From: Burkholderiales bacterium
GTDB taxonomy: Bacteria; Pseudomonadota; Gammaproteobacteria; Burkholderiales; Burkholderiaceae_C
Reading direction: 5' to 3'
Length of the DNA stretch: 64,000 bases
Assembly (NCBI GenBank): GCA_025360385.1
Contig: JANYCG010000004.1
Span: forward strand, 884 to 64,883
The notes beneath the pieces are model-generated. The model had not been told where the DNA came from. It did no database searches and saw only the letters and a list, made by a program, of their open reading frames with translations. Positions within the stretch are counted from its first letter, which is position 1. Every line of letters starts with the position of its first letter. A program made the position numbers and the translations under genes. Of this stretch, positions 635 through 59,870 are shown piece by piece.

Positions 635-902
635 TTCAGCAAAATATATTCGTGTAATTTGTATAAATTAATAAATATTGTCTGAATAACAATCAAAATC
701 ACTATTTTTTATATAGCTAAATACATATTGTTTATAGGAACTTGGCCCTAGAAATATACATTAAATTTATATAATTAAGTTTTATCTCTTTTTTTATCTT
801 TATTCTGACCTGCAAAATCATCCATGGGTGAACGGCTTCTGTGGCATCGCGCAGTGGATGCTGCCACCTCCCGCTGCGATGCACACCTAAAAACCGACAT
901 AC
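635..902. repeat. copy A of a diverged direct repeat (AT-rich spacer plus 3' end fragment of agmatine deiminase gene)
   Basis: Aligns by eye with 13107-13489. The shared start is ttcagcaaaata. The shared end is aaaaccgacatac. The rc of 822-881 encodes IAAGGGSIHCAMPQKPFTHG, versus IAAGGGSIHCATLQEPLTVG at the end of the 13291 gene. Copy A lacks about 110 bp that are present in copy B (13356-13468). Confidence 0.8.
701..741 (+). repeat. dispersed AT-rich motif, copy 1
   Basis: actattttttatatagctaaatacatattgtttataggaac. Shares the CTAT-(AT)n-ATAGC-TAA-TAT-N-ATAGGAAC pattern with the other copies. Confidence 0.6.
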
Positions 903-955
903 TCTCCCATGGGAGCGCCAGAGCCAGTAGGCTGGCGAACGATACGCCGTCACCC

Positions 956-985
956 AGAATGCACCGGTCAAGAATGCACCGGTCA
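956..985 (+). repeat. perfect 15-bp tandem duplication agaatgcaccggtca x2
   Basis: Read directly: 956-970 equals 971-985. Lies about 80 nt upstream of the probable hydrolase start at 1067. Confidence 0.9.
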
Positions 986-1066
986 ACAGTTCGGTCGATA
1001 ACGAAGCGTTCCGACCCGGATGATGTCGAAACTGGCTGCGCTTCAACAAAACAGGGCCAAAACCAA

Positions 1067-2074
1067 ATGCAAGCACCTTCAGTTCACTCTTTTTTGCCTT
1101 TTGATCTAGCGCTTGGCGTTGTCGCGCCTGGCGTTTCGGCACAAAGCGGTCAGCCCCCCAGAGAGAAGCTTGTCTTGTCCAGCAACGGCGCGCCGGACAT
1201 TGCCCTACAGCGCCAGCGCCCACCTGCGCAGCCCGGGCGCGCCGACGTGGTCTACGTGCATGGAGCCACTTTTGGCACCGATCTATCGATTTTTTTCCCA
1301 TTCGAAGGCCAGTCTTGGGCTGACAACCTTGCCGCGGCAGGATTTTCTGTCTGGGGTTTTGATTTTGTGGGCTTTGGATCATCGGGTCGATTCCCAAACG
1401 ACATCGGTCGGCCGGCCGGCGACATCGAAGACGCGATGCGCGACCTGCGCCGCGTGGTCCTTGCGGTCATGCAGCGAAATGGCAATCAGCCCGTCGTACT
1501 GCTGGCCCACTCGCGAGGCGCTGCCGTGGCTGCACGCTACGCCGGTGAATATGCCAAAGACGTCCGCGCCCTGGTTTTGTTTGGCCCAATCGTTTCGCGC
1601 TCCAAAGGCGCGGCGGCGTCTCCTTTGCCCAAGGTGCCTTCGCATTACCCGCTGAGCGTGTGGGCCCAATACCGGCGCTTCACCGAAGATGTTCCCAAGG
1701 GGCAGCCCCAGGTATTGGACGAAGGGCACATGCAAATTTGGAGCGCTGCATTCCTCTCTTCGGATCAAACCAGCAGCACGCGCATGCCGCCCTCTGTGAC
1801 AACTCCCTTCGGACCGGTGGCGGACATCGGCGCGCTCTGGTCCGGCAAAGCGCTGTACGACCCCGCCAAGGTCGTGGCACCCACTCTGATCGTCAGGGGT
1901 GAATGGGACTCACTCTGTACCGACGCGGACGCGCAGCGCTTAATGCAGGCTTTGGGCAGCGTGGACAAAGCAGACGAGAAAGTGCCGCGCGCCACGCACC
2001 TTATGCATATAGAGCAGCAGCGAACCGCGCTATACGCGCACGTCCACAGCTTCCTGAATCGGACGCTTCGATGA
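1067..2074 (+). CDS. alpha/beta-fold hydrolase
   Basis: ORF 824..2074. The conserved part starts after ATG 1067 (MQAPSVHSF...). It has a VVYVHGATFG oxyanion region and an LLAHSRGAAVA nucleophile elbow. The upstream part of the ORF overlaps repeat copy A, so the later start is preferred. Confidence 0.7.
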   Translation: MQAPSVHSFLPFDLALGVVAPGVSAQSGQPPREKLVLSSNGAPDIALQRQRPPAQPGRADVVYVHGATFGTDLSIFFPFEGQSWADNLAAAGFSVWGFDFVGFGSSGRFPNDIGRPAGDIEDAMRDLRRVVLAVMQRNGNQPVVLLAHSRGAAVAARYAGEYAKDVRALVLFGPIVSRSKGAAASPLPKVPSHYPLSVWAQYRRFTEDVPKGQPQVLDEGHMQIWSAAFLSSDQTSSTRMPPSVTTPFGPVADIGALWSGKALYDPAKVVAPTLIVRGEWDSLCTDADAQRLMQALGSVDKADEKVPRATHLMHIEQQRTALYAHVHSFLNRTLR

Positions 2075-2445
2075 TTGCCGTCATTTTCGAGGTCCTGCCG
2101 ACGGCAGAAGGCCATGCCAGCTACCTGGAGCACGCGGCGCGCCTAAGGACGCACCTGGAAGGCATGGACGGCTTCATCTCGATCGAGCGCTACAAGAGCC
2201 TGAGCACCGACGGCAAGCTGGTTTCGATTTCATTTTGGCGCGACGATGATTGCGTGCGCCGCTGGCGGGAACACCCTGAGCATCGACTGACCCAGGCCGC
2301 CGGGCGCCTGGGCATCTTTGAAGACTATCGCCTTCGTGTCGCGCAGGTCACGCGCGACTATGGCTTGCATGAGCGACAGCAAGCCCCCGCCGGTCATGCG
2401 CCGACCTCGGCCGTGTGTCCGGTCTTGCCGAGCGCGTTGTGGTGA
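2071..2445 (+). CDS. antibiotic biosynthesis monooxygenase (ABM) domain protein
   Basis: Internal ATG of ORF 1903..2445 overlaps the hydrolase stop (ATGA). MIAVIFEVLPTAEGHASYLEHAARLRTHLEGMDGFISIERYKS...ISFWRDDDCVRRWREHPEH is typical of the ABM fold. Confidence 0.7.
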   Translation: MIAVIFEVLPTAEGHASYLEHAARLRTHLEGMDGFISIERYKSLSTDGKLVSISFWRDDDCVRRWREHPEHRLTQAAGRLGIFEDYRLRVAQVTRDYGLHERQQAPAGHAPTSAVCPVLPSALW

Positions 2446-57774: not shown

Positions 57775-57788
57775 CCAAAGTGTGAAAT

Positions 57789-58955
57789 TTAGACCTGCGG
57801 CTGTCGCTGGCGCAGCGTCAGCCAAATCAGCGCCGCCGCCGTGACGGCCACTGGCAGCAAGGAGCCCAGGTTCAGCAATTGCCAGCCGCGTGTGGTGACC
57901 AGCGCACCTGAGGCAAATGAGGTCACTGCCATAGTGGCAAACACAAAAAAATTCAAGGCGCCCTGGGCCCGGTCTTTCTCCTCGGGGCGATAAGTTTGCA
58001 ACGCCAGCGTGGTGCTGCCGGTGAACAGAAAGTTCCAGCCCACGCCCAGCAGGAACAGGGCGGCCAAAAACTGGTGCAAATCAGCGCCAGACAATGCTAC
58101 GCCAATACACAAAAGCATCAATGCGACGCCCACACCCATGATAGGCAGGGTGCCAAAGCGCTTGATTAAATGTCCGGTGAAAAACCCTGGCGCGAACATG
58201 CCGATCACATGCCATTCAAGCACCAGGGCGATATCGGAAAACGGCAACTTGCATTGCTGCATGGCAATCGGGGTCGCCGCCATCAACAGGTTCATCACGC
58301 CAAACCCCAGCGCGCCACCGATGGCCGCCACCACGAACACGGGCTGGCGCATGATTTCACGCAAAGGTCGTCCGCCACCGGTCGATGTTTTTGCTGGCGC
58401 TGGTGGAAACTGCAAAAAGGCCATGGCCGCCATCGACAACATGGCGACCCCGGCCAATGCGAAATAAGCGCCGGCGAATGGCACGCTTAAGATGCCTTTG
58501 GTGTTTGCGGCGAGATTGGGCCCAAGCACAGCGCCCAGCAGGCCGCCCGCCATGACCAGCGAAACGGCTTTTTCACGCGACGGCGCGTCGGCAAGTTCAG
58601 CCGCTGCAAAACGGTACAACTGGGCGTTGGCGTTGTAATAACCGGCAATGACGGTGGCGGACACCAGCAGCCAGAAATTTTTCTCAAAGGCGGCGTAGGC
58701 GCACAACAAGGCAGACATCAGGCCCACCAGCAGTCCGAGCTGGAACGAGGCCTTGCGGCCCCATGCCATTTGGGTGCGGGCCACCAAACTGGTCGAGAGG
58801 GCACCACCCACCACATAACCCATGACCGGCAGCGTCGCCATCCAGCCCAGCGGTGCCAGGCTCAGGCCGACCAGGCCGTTGATGGCGATGAAGGTGACGT
58901 TGTTGGTGAGGAACAGGCCTTGGCAAATGGCCAAAAGCCAGAGGTTTTTTTTCAT
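57789..58955 (-). CDS. MFS transporter
   Basis: 12-TM pattern, 388 aa. Confidence 0.8.
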   Translation of the reverse strand: MKKNLWLLAICQGLFLTNNVTFIAINGLVGLSLAPLGWMATLPVMGYVVGGALSTSLVARTQMAWGRKASFQLGLLVGLMSALLCAYAAFEKNFWLLVSATVIAGYYNANAQLYRFAAAELADAPSREKAVSLVMAGGLLGAVLGPNLAANTKGILSVPFAGAYFALAGVAMLSMAAMAFLQFPPAPAKTSTGGGRPLREIMRQPVFVVAAIGGALGFGVMNLLMAATPIAMQQCKLPFSDIALVLEWHVIGMFAPGFFTGHLIKRFGTLPIMGVGVALMLLCIGVALSGADLHQFLAALFLLGVGWNFLFTGSTTLALQTYRPEEKDRAQGALNFFVFATMAVTSFASGALVTTRGWQLLNLGSLLPVAVTAAALIWLTLRQRQPQV

Positions 58956-59036
58956 GTGCGCAAAGGTGTATTGATTGTGGCCAAGGCTGACGGATGTTGG
59001 ACCCTGCGCCTACTGGGCGCGACCTTGTTTTGCGGG

Positions 59037-59822
59037 TCAAGACGCAAGCAGTGTAAGCGCGGCCAGGGCGGCAGTCTCGGCGCGCAAAACCCTGGGACCC
59101 AGTGACATCGGCGCAAAACCCGCAGCCAGCGCGGCGGCCTCTTCACCTGCGCTCAAACCCCCTTCAGGCCCGGACAAAAACACGGCTGCATCGCAGTCTC
59201 CTTGCATATCGCGCAAACTGAGCGCGTCGGCGTGCAAAGACAGCAGCAGCCGACGCAGACCCAAGCCGACTGCGGCCGTTGCATTGCCCTGGCTGACGGC
59301 ATTGGAGCCAAGGGCGGCAAGCCAGCGCTCCAGCGGCATCACCCCATGCACCAGCGGCACCCGGTTGCGGCCACACTGCTCGCAGGCGGCCACCACGATC
59401 GCCTGCCAATGCGCCTGCTTCTTGGCGGCGCGGTCACCGGCAAGGCGCAACACGCTGCGTTCGGTCATCAAGGGCTGAATGCTGACGACCCCCAGTTCGG
59501 TGGCTTTTTCGACCAACCAATCCATGCGGTCGTTGGCGGGCATGCCCACGGCCAGGTGAATCGCACGTTGCGTCTCAAGGTCTACGCTCTGATATTGGCC
59601 AATCTTGACCTGGACATCACTTCGGCCCATGTGCGTGATGGTCGCCATGAACTCGCCGCCTGGCCGCGACGTTTCCTGCAAACCTGGTTCTGCGCCGCCA
59701 AACAGGGCAATGGCGTCACCCGGCTGCAAGCGCAAGACCTGGACATGGCGAGCGGCCCCGGCAGGCAACAGTTGCAGCTCGCCTTGCGCCAGCGGCGTCG
59801 AACAGAAAAAACGAGGCAGCAT
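59037..59822 (-). CDS. rsmE: 16S rRNA (uracil1498-N3)-methyltransferase
   Basis: MLPRFF......G.L.L....A.H..VLRL..GD...LF.G and GPEGG.S..E. Confidence 0.85.
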   Translation of the reverse strand: MLPRFFCSTPLAQGELQLLPAGAARHVQVLRLQPGDAIALFGGAEPGLQETSRPGGEFMATITHMGRSDVQVKIGQYQSVDLETQRAIHLAVGMPANDRMDWLVEKATELGVVSIQPLMTERSVLRLAGDRAAKKQAHWQAIVVAACEQCGRNRVPLVHGVMPLERWLAALGSNAVSQGNATAAVGLGLRRLLLSLHADALSLRDMQGDCDAAVFLSGPEGGLSAGEEAAALAAGFAPMSLGPRVLRAETAALAALTLLAS

Positions 59823-59832
59823 GCTAGACGCT

Positions 59833-59870
59833 GCTATATTAATAGCAAACTATTCATAATACACGGGAAC
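59833..59870 (+). repeat. dispersed AT-rich motif, copy 8
   Basis: gctatattaatagcaaactattcataatacacgggaac, starting 10 nt from the rsmE start codon. Confidence 0.6.

What the first reader, a model, noticed from the sequence alone, without database searches (positions are those of the whole stretch)
701..59870. Dispersed ~40-65 nt AT-rich motif, at least 9 copies in 64 kb, all in the same orientation and mostly abutting gene ends
Almost every AT-rich islet in this GC-rich window contains the same word. It starts with a small inverted repeat, (G)CTAT-[4-8 A/T]-ATAGC. This is followed by (T/A)A(A/C)(T)TAT, then 8-12 variable nt, then (A/C)(C/T)(A/G)GG(G/A)AC. In several copies it continues with N6-9 CGATTT(T)N(A/C)CC. 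Clear copies are at 701, 13172, 24272, 29667, 30009, 41650, 50244 and 59833, plus a coding-region copy at 42681. Weaker copies are at 35999 and 14286. All copies read in the same direction on the + strand. This holds whatever the orientation of the neighbouring genes, and on both sides of dnaA. If orientation were random, nine out of nine agreeing has about a 1 in 256 chance. Several copies touch gene boundaries: one is 10 nt from the rsmE ATG on the opposite strand, one is 17 nt before the mnmE ATG, and one has a tail overlapping the rdgC stop. I do not recognise it as REP, ERIC, a tRNA fragment, an IS end or a dif site. It could be a decayed miniature mobile element or a binding-site family for a nucleoid or segregation protein. 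It could also be an unusual promoter class.
Basis: seen in the sequence. Interest (0 to 1): 0.65.

Follow-up and report, generated by a model that had tools for sequence, protein, structure and literature searches.

The report
Conserved 60-bp intergenic repeat family
The window carries eight real copies (plus one doubtful copy inside a gene) of an undescribed ~60-bp DNA element that a small group of Comamonadaceae bacteria keep next to gene ends, probably as a protein-binding site, but the striking "all in one direction" pattern does not hold elsewhere in related genomes.

Summary
The motif is real. Eight intergenic copies and one gene-internal look-alike align without gaps over about 58 nt: RCTA, a T-rich run, ATAGC(A/T)AACTAT, 8-9 variable nt, AYRGGRAC, then ATTT. 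All lie on the + strand, and shuffled sequence gives none.

- Copies 14286 and 35999 are not supported.
- Copies 701 and 13172 lie in one segmental duplication.
- Only 9 of 24 AT-rich islets carry the motif.
- The small inverted repeat shows no covariation.

The family is restricted to a few Polaromonas/Rhodoferax-like MAGs. It is absent from the plasmid, phage and viral collections and from Rfam.

Copies sit at orthologous sites in different species (rdgC end, rsmE/APH, yidC-mnmE, SDR/RRM). Conserved blocks stay 82-89% identical between the window and the CAVVSV MAG, while the columns between them are randomised. This argues for purifying selection, not decay.

Copies hug gene 3' ends in either orientation and avoid divergent promoter regions. 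In related MAGs direct copies bracket toxin-antitoxin and accessory genes.

No fold, promoter, terminator, terminal inverted repeats or transposase was found.

Co-orientation is regional and largely inherited. Elsewhere, adjacent copies agree 14 times and disagree 9 times.

Best reading: a REP-like but unstructured protein-binding element. Its function is unknown.

The parts
701..758 (+). Copy c701 (ATAGC anchor at 713). It lies in an AT-rich spacer upstream of an alpha/beta-hydrolase ORF (824..2074) and inside the duplicated segment 635-902.
   Evidence: nhmmer E 4e-10 and 1e-5. Duplication shown. Pfam.
13173..13230 (+). Copy c13172 (anchor 13185), between convergent genes: a + gene ending at 13010 and a - strand PAD_porph ORF ending at 13291. 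It is a paralogue of c701 through the segmental duplication 13107-13489.
   Evidence: nhmmer E 3e-9. Repeat families D3, D5 and D10. Pfam.
24269..24326 (+). Copy c24272 (anchor 24281), between the rdgC stop (- strand, 24321) and the start of an alpha/beta-hydrolase gene (- strand, 24231). Its tail overlaps the rdgC stop. It is orthologous to L046 copy 6298 in MAG CAVVSV.
   Evidence: E 1e-11. Synteny. Block identity 0.89 against non-block 0.31.
29664..29721 (+). Copy c29667 (anchor 29676), 160 nt from the TctC-family gene start (- strand, 29502).
   Evidence: E 1.5e-9. Pfam.
30007..30064 (+). Copy c30009 (anchor 30019), 43 nt upstream of a small + strand DUF1272 gene (30111..30380). It is probably orthologous to L018 copy 6853.
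   Evidence: E 4e-11 and 2.5e-13. ORF and Pfam. Block 0.89 against non-block 0.42.
41650..41707 (+). Copy c41650 (anchor 41662, with ATATC instead of ATAGC). It occupies the last 58 nt of the 95-nt yidC-mnmE spacer and ends at the mnmE ATG (41708). Diverged orthologous copies occur in L063, L065 and L067. It is absent in Acidovorax sp. 69, which has a GC-rich hairpin followed by a T-run (terminator-like) at that position.
   Evidence: E 1e-10..
42680..42737 (+). Motif-like stretch inside the mnmE coding sequence (anchor 42692). Membership is doubtful.
   Evidence: E 1e-4 and 1.6e-5. The orthologous stretch in L063 scores E 0.006. The same AT-rich, rare-codon patch is present in Acidovorax.
50244..50301 (+). 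Copy c50244 (anchor 50256), between convergent SDR (+, ends 50219) and RRM-protein (-, ends 50457) genes. A separate hairpin flanked by A- and T-runs (terminator-like in both directions) lies at about 50385-50420. Orthologous copies occur in L063 and L067.
   Evidence: E 1.5e-10..
59830..59887 (+). Copy c59833 (anchor 59842), between the rsmE start (- strand, 59822) and the stop of an APH-family kinase gene (- strand, 59940). It is orthologous to L027 copy 476.
   Evidence: E 2e-11. Synteny. Block 0.82 against non-block 0.27.

Best explanation
The motif is one member set of a lineage-restricted family of about 60-bp extragenic elements. The family occurs in a Polaromonas/Rhodoferax-like clade of Comamonadaceae.

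Family consensus: ttGCTAy, T-run, ATAGC(A/T)AACTAT, tgatattg, ACGGGGACT, tcaGGCnn, ATTTnAy. The window's own copies are a more degenerate dialect, with GGRAC in place of GGGGACT.

Most likely mode of action (inferred, not shown): the element works as double-stranded DNA. Several rigidly spaced sequence blocks, about one helical turn apart, are read by a dedicated trans-acting protein or protein complex.

What is shown:
- Copies lie immediately beside stop codons, in either orientation relative to the gene.
- They are over-represented between convergent genes and avoid divergent promoter regions.
- Individual copies are kept by purifying selection at the same orthologous sites in different species.

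What is inferred:
- The family was seeded by insertion at gene ends, sometimes supplying the last codons or the stop of the neighbouring gene, and together with accessory gene cassettes.
- It now serves as a 'transcription-unit end' site. That role resembles the one proposed for REP/BIME elements, for example docking of a topology, nucleoid or recombination protein.
- The identity of the protein and the actual role are unknown.

The uniform + orientation in this window is a regional and largely inherited feature. It is not a defining property of the family.
For: Reality and rigidity
- 51 copies from five or more genomes align over 96 columns with no gap.
- 28 of 70 columns carry at least 1 bit of information.

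Restricted distribution
- A pattern scan of 185,579 species genomes gave 62 loci. About 50 come from a handful of betaproteobacterial MAGs: JANOLC, CAVVSV, JANOBJ, CAVZHO, and Polaromonas, Rhodoferax and HGW-Betaproteobacteria-3 MAGs. The rest are at chance level.
- There are no real matches in plasmids or phages (one and two partial 27-nt chance-level hits) and none in IMG/VR.

Selection
- Orthologous pairs between the window and MAG CAVVSV have block columns 0.82-0.89 identical and non-block columns 0.27-0.42 identical. Unrelated pairs average 0.80 and 0.33 (synteny).
- Diverged copies persist at yidC-mnmE and SDR/RRM in relatives whose MnmE is only about 72% identical.

Placement
- Motif-bearing spacers: tandem 36, convergent 21, divergent 6. 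Background: 121, 45 and 47 (chi-square about 9, p about 0.01).
- Tandem-same and tandem-opposite are both 18.
- Stop codons lie flush with, or inside, the element's ends.

No structure
- RNAalifold predicts 0 pairs.
- The palindrome pairs no better than shuffles.
- Pairing with downstream sequence is not better than permuted partners.
- There are no Rfam matches at E of 1-10 or less.

No promoter or terminator signature.
Against: - No binding protein is identified, and no candidate gene recurs next to copies.
- About 40 bits of conserved, asymmetric information is much more than a typical nucleoid protein or transcription-factor site needs. It resembles transposon ends or recombination sites more closely.
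- Direct copies bracket toxin-antitoxin and accessory genes in related MAGs. That hints at a recombination or mobility role rather than a purely architectural one.
- The window's copies are more degenerate than those of JANOLC and CAVVSV. In this particular genome the system may be relaxing.
- Gene contexts rest on a home-made codon-bias gene caller.
- Only about 0.54 Mb of related sequence could be examined, all of it chosen because it holds a copy.
Confidence: 0.4

Rival explanations
1. REP-like element serviced by a single-copy HUH (RAYT/IS200-type) or other single-strand DNA enzyme. The AT-rich dyad plus the adjacent CTATTGATATTG would be the recognition hairpin and nick region. Strand-specific activity on replication intermediates would give local co-orientation, and 'molecular drive' would keep the consensus.
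For: - Copies are extragenic, lie at gene 3' ends and are enriched between convergent genes. Extrapolating about 1 copy per 7-12 kb suggests hundreds per genome.
- The consensus has lineage-specific dialects: GGRAC, GGGGACTT, GGGGACAAC and GAGGGCTA.
- REPIN-RAYT systems are described as vertically inherited and long-lived (bioRxiv 10.1101/2022.05.22.493013; PMC3116915).
- TTGATA resembles nick or target motifs of HUH enzymes. This rests on my own recollection and was not tested.
- Orientation is biased in the dnaA region of two species.
Against: - There is no stable or covarying hairpin.
- Copies are singletons, not inverted doublets.
- tblastn with recalled RayT and IS200 TnpA sequences found nothing in 0.54 Mb.
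- Non-block columns differ between copies within a genome, which argues against recent copying.
- Orientation does not flip across the probable origin, marked by DnaA boxes at 37305, 37333 and 38859.
- Adjacent copies elsewhere are 14 concordant to 9 discordant.
Confidence: 0.15
2. Attachment or recombination site of a cassette-type system, integron-like in logic but not in sequence. A site-specific recombinase inserts circular gene cassettes at the element's right end. This leaves direct copies on both sides and builds small arrays at gene ends.
For: - At the site that is a 14-nt spacer in the window (57775-57788), MAG CAVVSV has a 2.7-kb array. Its order is gene, copy A, ORF, copy B (inverted), VapBC-like pair (PIN toxin by Pfam; antitoxin read from the sequence only), copy C, ParE plus an adjacent HTH-like antitoxin ORF (read from the sequence only), copy D, gene.
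- MAG JANOLC has copy, 320-aa gene, copy at the same site.
- The sequences of the two MAGs diverge exactly after the element's right end.
- Single accessory genes (desaturase, radical-SAM, phosphoesterase) are tightly bracketed by direct copies.
- A MazF-family toxin gene, with a small ORF upstream, abuts a copy in L058.
- In the window a 12-kb accessory segment is bracketed by c701 and c13172 within a direct duplication.
- The core has an 8-7-8 dyad layout like tyrosine-recombinase core sites. This comparison is from my own knowledge.
Against: - No integrase or recombinase occurs in the window or near arrays.
- The left dyad arm is poorly conserved.
- Integron attC features are absent: no R''/R' boxes and no conserved fold (the definition follows PMC4889954).
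- Many copies sit unchanged beside core genes such as yidC-mnmE and rdgC across species, with no cassette variation.
- Bracketing could simply reflect one copy per gene end.
Confidence: 0.15
3. Promoter family, for example for an ECF/sigma-E-like factor (GGAACTT, 16 nt, TCAAA or TCTGA). It would drive downstream genes, or antisense RNAs into the 3' ends of convergent genes.
For: - c701, c30009 and c41650 lie upstream of co-oriented genes.
- c701 and c59833 read GGAACTT.
- c50244 and c59833 have TCAAA or TCTGA 16-17 nt downstream (by inspection).
- AT-rich sequence lies upstream, like an UP element.
Against: - The putative -10 columns carry almost no information across 70 copies.
- 21 of 63 copies are between convergent genes, and 18 of 63 have no co-oriented neighbour at all.
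- At mnmE, and at several sites in related MAGs, the start codon lies at or before the would-be -10.
- The sigma-70 scan finds nothing at the copies.
Confidence: 0.1
4. Neutral relic: a dead MITE-like insertion family that is simply decaying, with no present function.
For: - The window's copies are heterogeneous (GGGGAC, GGGAAC, AGGAAC, CGGAAC).
- A possible further-decayed remnant lies at 31525-31575, where CAVVSV has a good copy.
- Stop codons supplied by the element suggest past insertion.
Against: - Block columns are conserved at 82-89% while interspersed columns are saturated in orthologous copies.
- There are no terminal inverted repeats or target-site duplications.
Confidence: 0.07
5. 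Structured RNA or 3'-UTR element (riboswitch-like, sRNA, ribozyme, terminator).
For: Copies lie at gene ends, and T-runs flank the core.
Against: - There is no consensus fold.
- There are no Rfam hits even at permissive thresholds.
- The element is equally frequent in sense and antisense relative to the adjacent gene end.
- Hairpin-plus-T-run terminators, where present, are separate from the element.
- They are equally rare with and without the motif.
Confidence: 0.05

Closest known systems
REP/BIME and REPIN elements with their RAYT transposases (Enterobacteria, Pseudomonas, Stenotrophomonas; PMC3116915, PMC3337134, PMC3686654)
   Same: - Short extragenic repeats concentrated at gene 3' ends and between convergent genes.
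- Lineage-specific consensus.
- Long vertical persistence.
- Proposed roles as protein-docking sites.
   Different: - No stable imperfect palindrome and no covariation.
- AT-rich rather than GC-rich.
- Singletons rather than inverted doublets or clusters.
- A long asymmetric 3' half (ACGGGGACT ... ATTT).
- No RAYT found in the sequence available.
Correia/NEMIS elements of Neisseria and ERIC/IRU elements of enterobacteria (MITE-type intergenic repeats; from my own knowledge)
   Same: - Dispersed copies that abut or overlap gene ends.
- An IHF-consensus-like stretch (TATCAATAGTTTG on the bottom strand) in the JANOLC/CAVVSV consensus, reminiscent of the IHF site in Correia elements.
   Different: - No terminal inverted repeats and no TA or other target duplication.
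- About 60 bp instead of 100-155 bp.
- The IHF-like stretch is not kept in the window's copies or in the L063 clade.
Integron attC sites and CALIN arrays (PMC4889954)
   Same: Direct copies follow successive cassettes. The cassettes include toxin-antitoxin modules, and all but one copy share one orientation in the L027 array. Variable DNA begins right at one end of the site.
   Different: - No R''/L''-L'/R' architecture, no GTTRRRY core and no conserved fold.
- Most copies are solitary beside core genes.
- No integrase is present.
Oriented chromosomal words (Chi, KOPS, Ter; from my own knowledge)
   Same: Uniform orientation over tens of kilobases in this region.
   Different: - Those are 8-23 bp and flip at the origin and terminus.
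- This element is about 60 bp, does not flip across the dnaA/DnaA-box region, and is only weakly co-oriented elsewhere (14:9).

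Membership tests
REP/REPIN-RAYT | Imperfect palindrome able to form a stable hairpin, maintained by compensatory change | tested here: not met
   RNAalifold predicts 0 pairs on 51 copies. The dyad pairs in 62.7% of cells against 62.6% in shuffles, and the covariation score equals the shuffles.
REP/REPIN-RAYT | REPs occur as inverted doublets (REPINs) or clusters | tested here: not met
   Copies are solitary. The only adjacent inverted pair (L053) shares identical flanks at a contig end and looks like an assembly artefact.
REP/REPIN-RAYT | A single-copy RAYT gene flanked by the repeats | tested here: inconclusive
   tblastn with recalled RayT and IS200 TnpA queries found nothing in 0.54 Mb. 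Whole genomes could not be searched.
REP/REPIN-RAYT | Extragenic and abundant, with a 3'-end or convergent-spacer preference | tested here: met
   Density is about 1 per 7-12 kb.
MITE | Terminal inverted repeats and target-site duplication | tested here: not met
   In the alignments of about 70 copies with flanks, the left end (ttGCTA) and right end (ATTTnAy) are unrelated, and no duplicated flank is visible.
Integron attC | R''(RYYYAAC)...R'(GTTRRRY) boxes and a conserved bottom-strand hairpin. Arrays lie next to intI or occur as CALINs | tested here: not met
   No such boxes appear in conserved columns and there is no fold. No integrase is present in the loci. IntegronFinder's own covariance model could not be run.
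Sigma-70 promoter | -35 and -10 hexamers 16-18 nt apart, upstream of a gene | tested here: not met
   The consensus scan finds none at the two copies in 29400-30500. TTGACG is present, but no TAnnnT lies at the right distance.
ECF/sigma-E-type promoter | GGAACTT, 16-17 nt, TCAAA or TCTGA, upstream of regulon genes | tested here: not met
   The -35-like box is conserved. The -10 columns are near zero information and are present in only 2-3 of 8 window copies. One third of copies lie between convergent genes.
Intrinsic terminator | G+C-rich hairpin followed by a T-run | tested here: not met
   The element has no such hairpin. By my simple hairpin-plus-T-run rule, terminators occur at 6% of 3' ends with the motif and 9% without.
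Any Rfam RNA family | Match to a curated covariance model | tested here: not met
   There are 0 matches at gathering score in the window. There are 0 at E of 10 or less in 29550-30450. There are 0 at E of 1 or less in 61 kb holding about 22 copies.
IHF-binding repeat (RIP/Correia-like) | WATCAANNNNTTR core | tested here: inconclusive
   The core is present on the bottom strand of the JANOLC/CAVVSV consensus (by inspection). It is not kept in most window copies or in the L063 clade.

The most novel reading that the evidence does not exclude
The element is the attachment site of a previously unrecognised cassette-capture system that does not depend on an integron. A recombinase inserts toxin-antitoxin and other accessory gene cassettes at the element's right boundary, next to the stop codons of resident genes. 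This scatters small, mostly co-oriented cassette arrays around the chromosome instead of building one integron platform.
Probability: 0.12. Interest if true: 0.8.

Novelty: new variant of a known kind. Interest (0 to 1): 0.5.

Why it matters
Short dispersed repeats are rare in bacteria, and only a few families (REP/RAYT, Correia, ERIC, attC) are understood.

This family is unusual in four ways:
- It has no secondary structure.
- It carries about 40 bits of rigidly spaced sequence information.
- It is kept by selection at the same gene ends across species.
- It is associated with bracketed toxin-antitoxin and accessory genes.

If a dedicated protein reads it, that would define a new cis/trans pair. 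Such a pair could act at transcription-unit boundaries or in gene acquisition, in an environmentally dominant group of cold-water and glacier Comamonadaceae.

If instead it is only a relic, it is still a useful phylogenetic and synteny marker for these uncultured lineages.

Tried and rejected
Retrieving the source contig
- Three look-ups of window proteins found nothing. The remaining 18 kb and the other contigs of the source genome could not be examined.

JGI metagenome scan
- It gave 28 loci, of which only 3 are real. It added little.

Replication-strand test
- Raw third-codon-position GC skew (GC3 skew) on the motif strand is negative in 33 loci and positive in 16. This is confounded by a coding-strand preference for C at third positions.
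- After separating gene orientation, the replication component is -0.02 to -0.04 for the window, JANOLC and CAVVSV. It is +0.03 for the other MAGs. It shows no sign change across dnaA. The result is inconclusive.
- GCTGGTGG octamers are 2 (+) and 9 (-) left of 39 kb, but 3 and 3 to the right. There are too few GGGNAGGG words to use.

Pairing of the GGGGACTT box with downstream sequence
- Several striking single cases exist (for example L046). The ensemble is only about 2 sd better than permuted partners. Rejected.

'Concerted evolution' of the mnmE-internal copy with the intergenic dialect
- It looked convincing for the window against L063. L067 breaks it, and Acidovorax shares the AT-rich patch. 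Dropped.

Recurrent neighbour genes, transposases and RAYT
- None found.

Literature
- Searches for the sequence strings and for repeats in Polaromonas or Rhodoferax returned nothing relevant.

Leads from memory only, none testable here, given no weight
- A 12-nt identity (ATTGACGGGGAC) to the 16S rRNA 920 region.
- Resemblance of AACT..TGATATT to the phiX174 and pC194 nick region.
- Resemblance to Fur, IscR, Lrp, LysR (T-N11-A), Ter and dif sites.

Full report
THE OBSERVATION

The window is 59% G+C. Printing the eleven claimed sites and anchoring them on ATAGC shows that the eight 'clear' copies align without any gap. The shared layout is:
- RCT(A) at -12;
- a T-rich run;
- ATAGC at 0;
- (A/T)A.(C)TAT at +5 to +11;
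- eight to nine variable bases;
- A(C/T)(G/A)GG(G/A)AC at +20 to +27;
- in most copies, ATTT near +38.

An HMM of these eight recovers them all on the + strand (E 1e-11 to 3e-9). It also recovers the untrained site inside mnmE (42677-42730, E 1e-4). Site 35999 scores E = 0.25 and 14286 scores E = 11. The - strand gives only fragments of the palindromic part. A degenerate pattern hits six times, against 0.00 expected in shuffles. A later family-wide HMM of 75 copies finds the same nine sites and nothing more. Rfam and tRNA scans are empty.

- Copies 701 and 13172 lie in a diverged segmental duplication, 635-902 versus 13107-13489. The duplication also contains a fragment of the neighbouring PAD_porph gene. 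Only seven intergenic copies are therefore independent.
- Only 9 of 24 AT-rich islets hold the motif. The islets without it are mostly divergent promoter regions, the dnaA and dnaN spacers, and a terminator-like hairpin.

ORGANISM AND DISTRIBUTION

MnmE of the window has its best relatives at 71-73% identity by BLASTP, or 68-75% over a MAFFT alignment of 40 homologues. These are Comamonadaceae such as Acidovorax, Ramlibacter and Variovorax. The window's own 82-kb contig could not be retrieved.

A pattern scan of one genome per species (185,579 species) returned 62 loci. About 50 come from a few betaproteobacterial MAGs:
- JANOLC, about 27 loci;
- CAVVSV, about 15;
- JANOBJ, 7;
- CAVZHO, 2;
- one each from a Polaromonas MAG, a Rhodoferax MAG and HGW-Betaproteobacteria-3.

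The remaining dozen (Flavobacteriaceae, Paenibacillus and others) are what chance predicts, and most fail the HMM. The plasmid and phage collections give only partial 27-nt chance-level hits, and IMG/VR gives none. A scan of JGI metagenomes adds three real copies.

With about 70 copies the family consensus becomes clear: ttGCTAy, T-run, ATAGC(A/T)AACTAT, tgatattg, ACGGGGACT, tcaGGCnn, ATTTnAy. Fifty-one copies from several genomes align over 96 columns with no indel. Lineages have dialects:
- window, GGRAC;
- JANOLC and CAVVSV, GGGGACTT;
- JANOBJ, GGGGACAAC;
- CAVZHO and Polaromonas, CTACTTACGTCC...ACAGGGACTAC.

NOT AN RNA OR HAIRPIN

RNAalifold predicts no pair at all. The dyad TTTGCTAT-N7-ATAGCAAA has fixed spacing, but its left arm varies without compensation. 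Pairing is 62.7% of cells against 62.6% in shuffles, and the covariation score equals the shuffles (raw counts). Apparent pairing of GGGGACTT with downstream sequence in some copies is no better than with permuted partners (-11.3 against -10.8 +/- 0.24 kcal/mol). Rfam at permissive thresholds is empty for 61 kb containing about 22 copies.

GENE CONTEXT

Flanking genes in the window were identified with Pfam:

| Copy | Context |
|---|---|
| c701 | upstream of a hydrolase ORF |
| c13172 | between convergent genes |
| c24272 | between the rdgC stop and a hydrolase start, both on the - strand |
| c29667 and c30009 | in the 900-bp gap between a TctC-family gene and DAHP synthase; c30009 is 43 nt upstream of a small DUF1272 gene |
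| c41650 | occupies the last 58 nt of the 95-nt yidC-mnmE spacer |
| c50244 | between convergent SDR and RRM-protein genes, beside a separate terminator-like hairpin |
| c59833 | between the rsmE start and the stop of an APH-kinase gene, both on the - strand |

For the wider family I called genes with a codon-bias model trained on the window. In motif orientation, spacers that carry a copy are:
- tandem-same, 18;
- tandem-opposite, 18;
- convergent, 21;
- divergent, 6.

All spacers of at least 40 nt in the same loci are tandem 121, convergent 45 and divergent 47 (chi-square about 9, p about 0.01). The element is therefore tied to gene 3' ends, is indifferent to which strand the gene is on, and avoids divergent promoter regions.

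Its ends are flush with coding sequence. The upstream stop codon usually lies within about 0-40 nt of the left end. Stop codons of convergent genes often lie inside the right part; for example, TGA is the complement of CTTCAGG. Hairpin-plus-T-run terminators, by my simple rule, are equally rare at 3' ends with the motif (6%) and without it (9%).

These contexts exclude a promoter class for the flanking genes and an mRNA element. The putative sigma-E-like arrangement (GGAACTT, 16 nt, TCAAA or TCTGA) is present in only 2-3 window copies. Its '-10' columns carry almost no information across the family.

ORTHOLOGY AND SELECTION

The 128-kb CAVVSV contig 27 (loci L018, L027, L046, L058) is reverse-syntenic with window positions 24-60 kb. 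It has copies at the same places:
- rdgC 3' end (L046);
- rsmE/APH spacer (L027);
- the DAHP-synthase/TctC gap (L018).

In these pairs the 28 high-information columns are 82-89% identical. The 26 low-information columns are 27-42% identical, which is no better than unrelated copies at 33%.

More distant relatives (L063, L064, L065, L067; MnmE about 72% identical) keep diverged copies in the yidC-mnmE and SDR/RRM spacers. Acidovorax sp. 69 has a GC-rich hairpin followed by a T-run (terminator-like) in the yidC-mnmE spacer instead. It does carry a colinear, hairpin-containing relative in its gyrB-dnaN spacer.

The blocks are thus held by purifying selection at individual sites over a time in which neutral positions saturated. 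This argues against a merely decaying MITE. It also argues against recent copy-and-paste, which would homogenise the variable columns too. Loss does occur: where CAVVSV has a good copy upstream of the DAHP synthase gene, the window has only a possible remnant (31525-31575).

ORIENTATION

All nine window copies are on the + strand, and seven are independent (two-sided p about 0.016). Perfect DnaA boxes lie at 37305 and 37333 (dnaA-dnaN spacer) and at 38859. An origin inside the window is therefore likely, yet the orientation does not flip there.

Attempts to infer the replication direction were inconclusive:
- Third-codon-position GC skew (GC3 skew) is dominated by a coding-strand preference for C.
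- After separating that effect, the replication term is slightly negative on both sides of dnaA.
- Pooled over loci it is negative for the window, JANOLC and CAVVSV, but positive for the other MAGs.
- Chi-like octamers are informative only on the left side.

CAVVSV contig 27 has 10 copies in the window's orientation and 1 opposed. It is the orthologous region, so this is partly the same observation. In all other loci with two or more copies, adjacent copies agree 14 times and disagree 9 times. Uniform orientation is therefore a regional, largely inherited feature. At most it reflects a moderate bias (about 80:20 would fit both data sets). It is not a rule.

ASSOCIATION WITH INSERTED GENES

Where the window has a 14-nt spacer between convergent genes (57775-57788), CAVVSV has a 2.7-kb insertion. 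Read in the window's orientation, its order is:
- gene;
- copy A;
- small ORF;
- copy B (inverted);
- VapBC-like pair (PIN toxin by Pfam; antitoxin read from the sequence only);
- copy C;
- ParE plus an adjacent HTH-like antitoxin ORF (read from the sequence only);
- copy D;
- gene.

JANOLC has copy, 320-aa gene, copy at the same site. The two MAGs share the first copy to its very last bases (TTTTGATC) and then diverge.

Further associations:
- A MazF-family toxin gene abuts another copy in L058.
- A desaturase, a radical-SAM enzyme and a phosphoesterase are each tightly bracketed by two direct copies.
- In the window the accessory segment 903-13106 is bracketed by the duplicated segments that contain c701 and c13172. 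This segment includes three P47-like genes, a PEP-CTERM protein and a glycosyltransferase.

This is suggestive of a recombination or insertion role. However, no integrase, transposase or other recurrent neighbour was found.

INTERPRETATION

The features are:
- rigid spacing;
- about 28 constrained positions in blocks roughly one helical turn apart;
- absence of any fold;
- independence from gene orientation;
- anchoring at gene 3' ends, with a preference for convergent spacers;
- site-by-site purifying selection.

Together they fit a double-stranded DNA element read by a dedicated protein best (confidence about 0.4). It fills the genomic niche of REP/BIME-type repeats, but it fails the structural tests for REP/REPIN, MITE and attC membership.

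Which protein reads it, and what it does, is not shown. Candidate roles are a boundary or topology site, or a recombination site. The main rivals are an HUH/RAYT-type single-strand system (0.15), a cassette attachment site (0.15), a promoter or antisense-promoter family (0.1), a neutral relic (0.07) and an RNA element (0.05).

NOVELTY

No matching description was found in the searchable literature, either by sequence string or by organism. No Rfam family matches. I classify it as a new variant of a known kind, namely dispersed extragenic repeats. Interest is moderate. The block-wise conservation across species and the bracketing of toxin-antitoxin and accessory genes are real and unexplained.

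Noticed in passing
window 635-902 vs 13107-13489; also 3571-3605 vs 13662-13696: A diverged segmental duplication (76-91% identity) carries a motif copy plus a fragment of the 3' end of the PAD_porph (agmatine deiminase-like) gene. The PAD_porph ORF at 13291-13893 covers only profile positions 128-321, so it is truncated or frameshifted. The two repeats bracket a roughly 12-kb accessory-looking segment.
   Followed up: partly
window 16993-17084 and 17987-18246: A second, unrelated repeat family. These are G+C-rich units (84-nt spacing) with internal palindromes (GCCCCCCAGGGGGGC; TTTTGCC...GGCAAAA). There is one copy and then three tandem copies in the spacers of an ABC-transporter operon. They look REP/BIME-like.
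   Followed up: no
window 5641-10067 and 10255-10953: Three consecutive paralogous genes match the Clostridium P-47 family (PF06597). They are followed by a PEP-CTERM protein. This is an unusual cluster for a Comamonadaceae chromosome near dnaA.
   Followed up: no
window 37305-37341 and 38809-38867: Perfect DnaA boxes form an inverted pair in the AT-rich dnaA-dnaN spacer, and one perfect plus one near-perfect box lie upstream of dnaA. This is probably oriC and/or dnaA autoregulation. GC3 skew shows no clear switch here.
   Followed up: partly
window 30111-30380 (+): A small Cys-rich DUF1272 gene with a good ribosome-binding site lies in the 'empty' 900-bp gap between the TctC-family gene and DAHP synthase. 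It is missed by a 100-aa ORF cut-off.
   Followed up: yes
window 42650-42760 (mnmE codons ~315-350); L063, L065, L066, L067 same codons: A patch of mnmE uses AT-rich, rare codons (ATA, AGG, TTA; GC3 about 20-30%) in all relatives examined, including Acidovorax. This suggests a conserved nucleotide-level constraint inside the gene that is independent of the repeat family.
   Followed up: partly
window 50466-50581 (- strand gene 50457-50864): The RRM-domain protein has a Gly-rich tail encoded by a degenerate 9-18-nt tandem repeat (GCCACCACC...). Relatives carry two such RRM genes in tandem where the window has one predicted.
   Followed up: no
L027 2400-5100 (CAVVSV contig 27), L058 345-945, L065 16759-17185: Toxin-antitoxin modules (PIN/VapC with a putative antitoxin, ParE with an HTH-like ORF, MazF-family, BrnT-CopG) are inserted at gene ends and flanked by motif copies in related MAGs. 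The window has no such module at the corresponding sites.
   Followed up: partly
L066 3987-4051 and 16908-16947 (Acidovorax sp. 69): Acidovorax has a colinear relative of the element in which the two 10-nt blocks after ATAGC form a perfect hairpin (CTAGCGCTTA / TAAGCGCTAG). The word GCTAGCGCTT recurs at a second spacer. This may be an ancestral or sister structured family.
   Followed up: no
L053 1-220: Two motif copies in inverted orientation with identical flanks lie at a contig end. This is most likely a fold-back assembly artefact, and I excluded it from the counts.
   Followed up: partly
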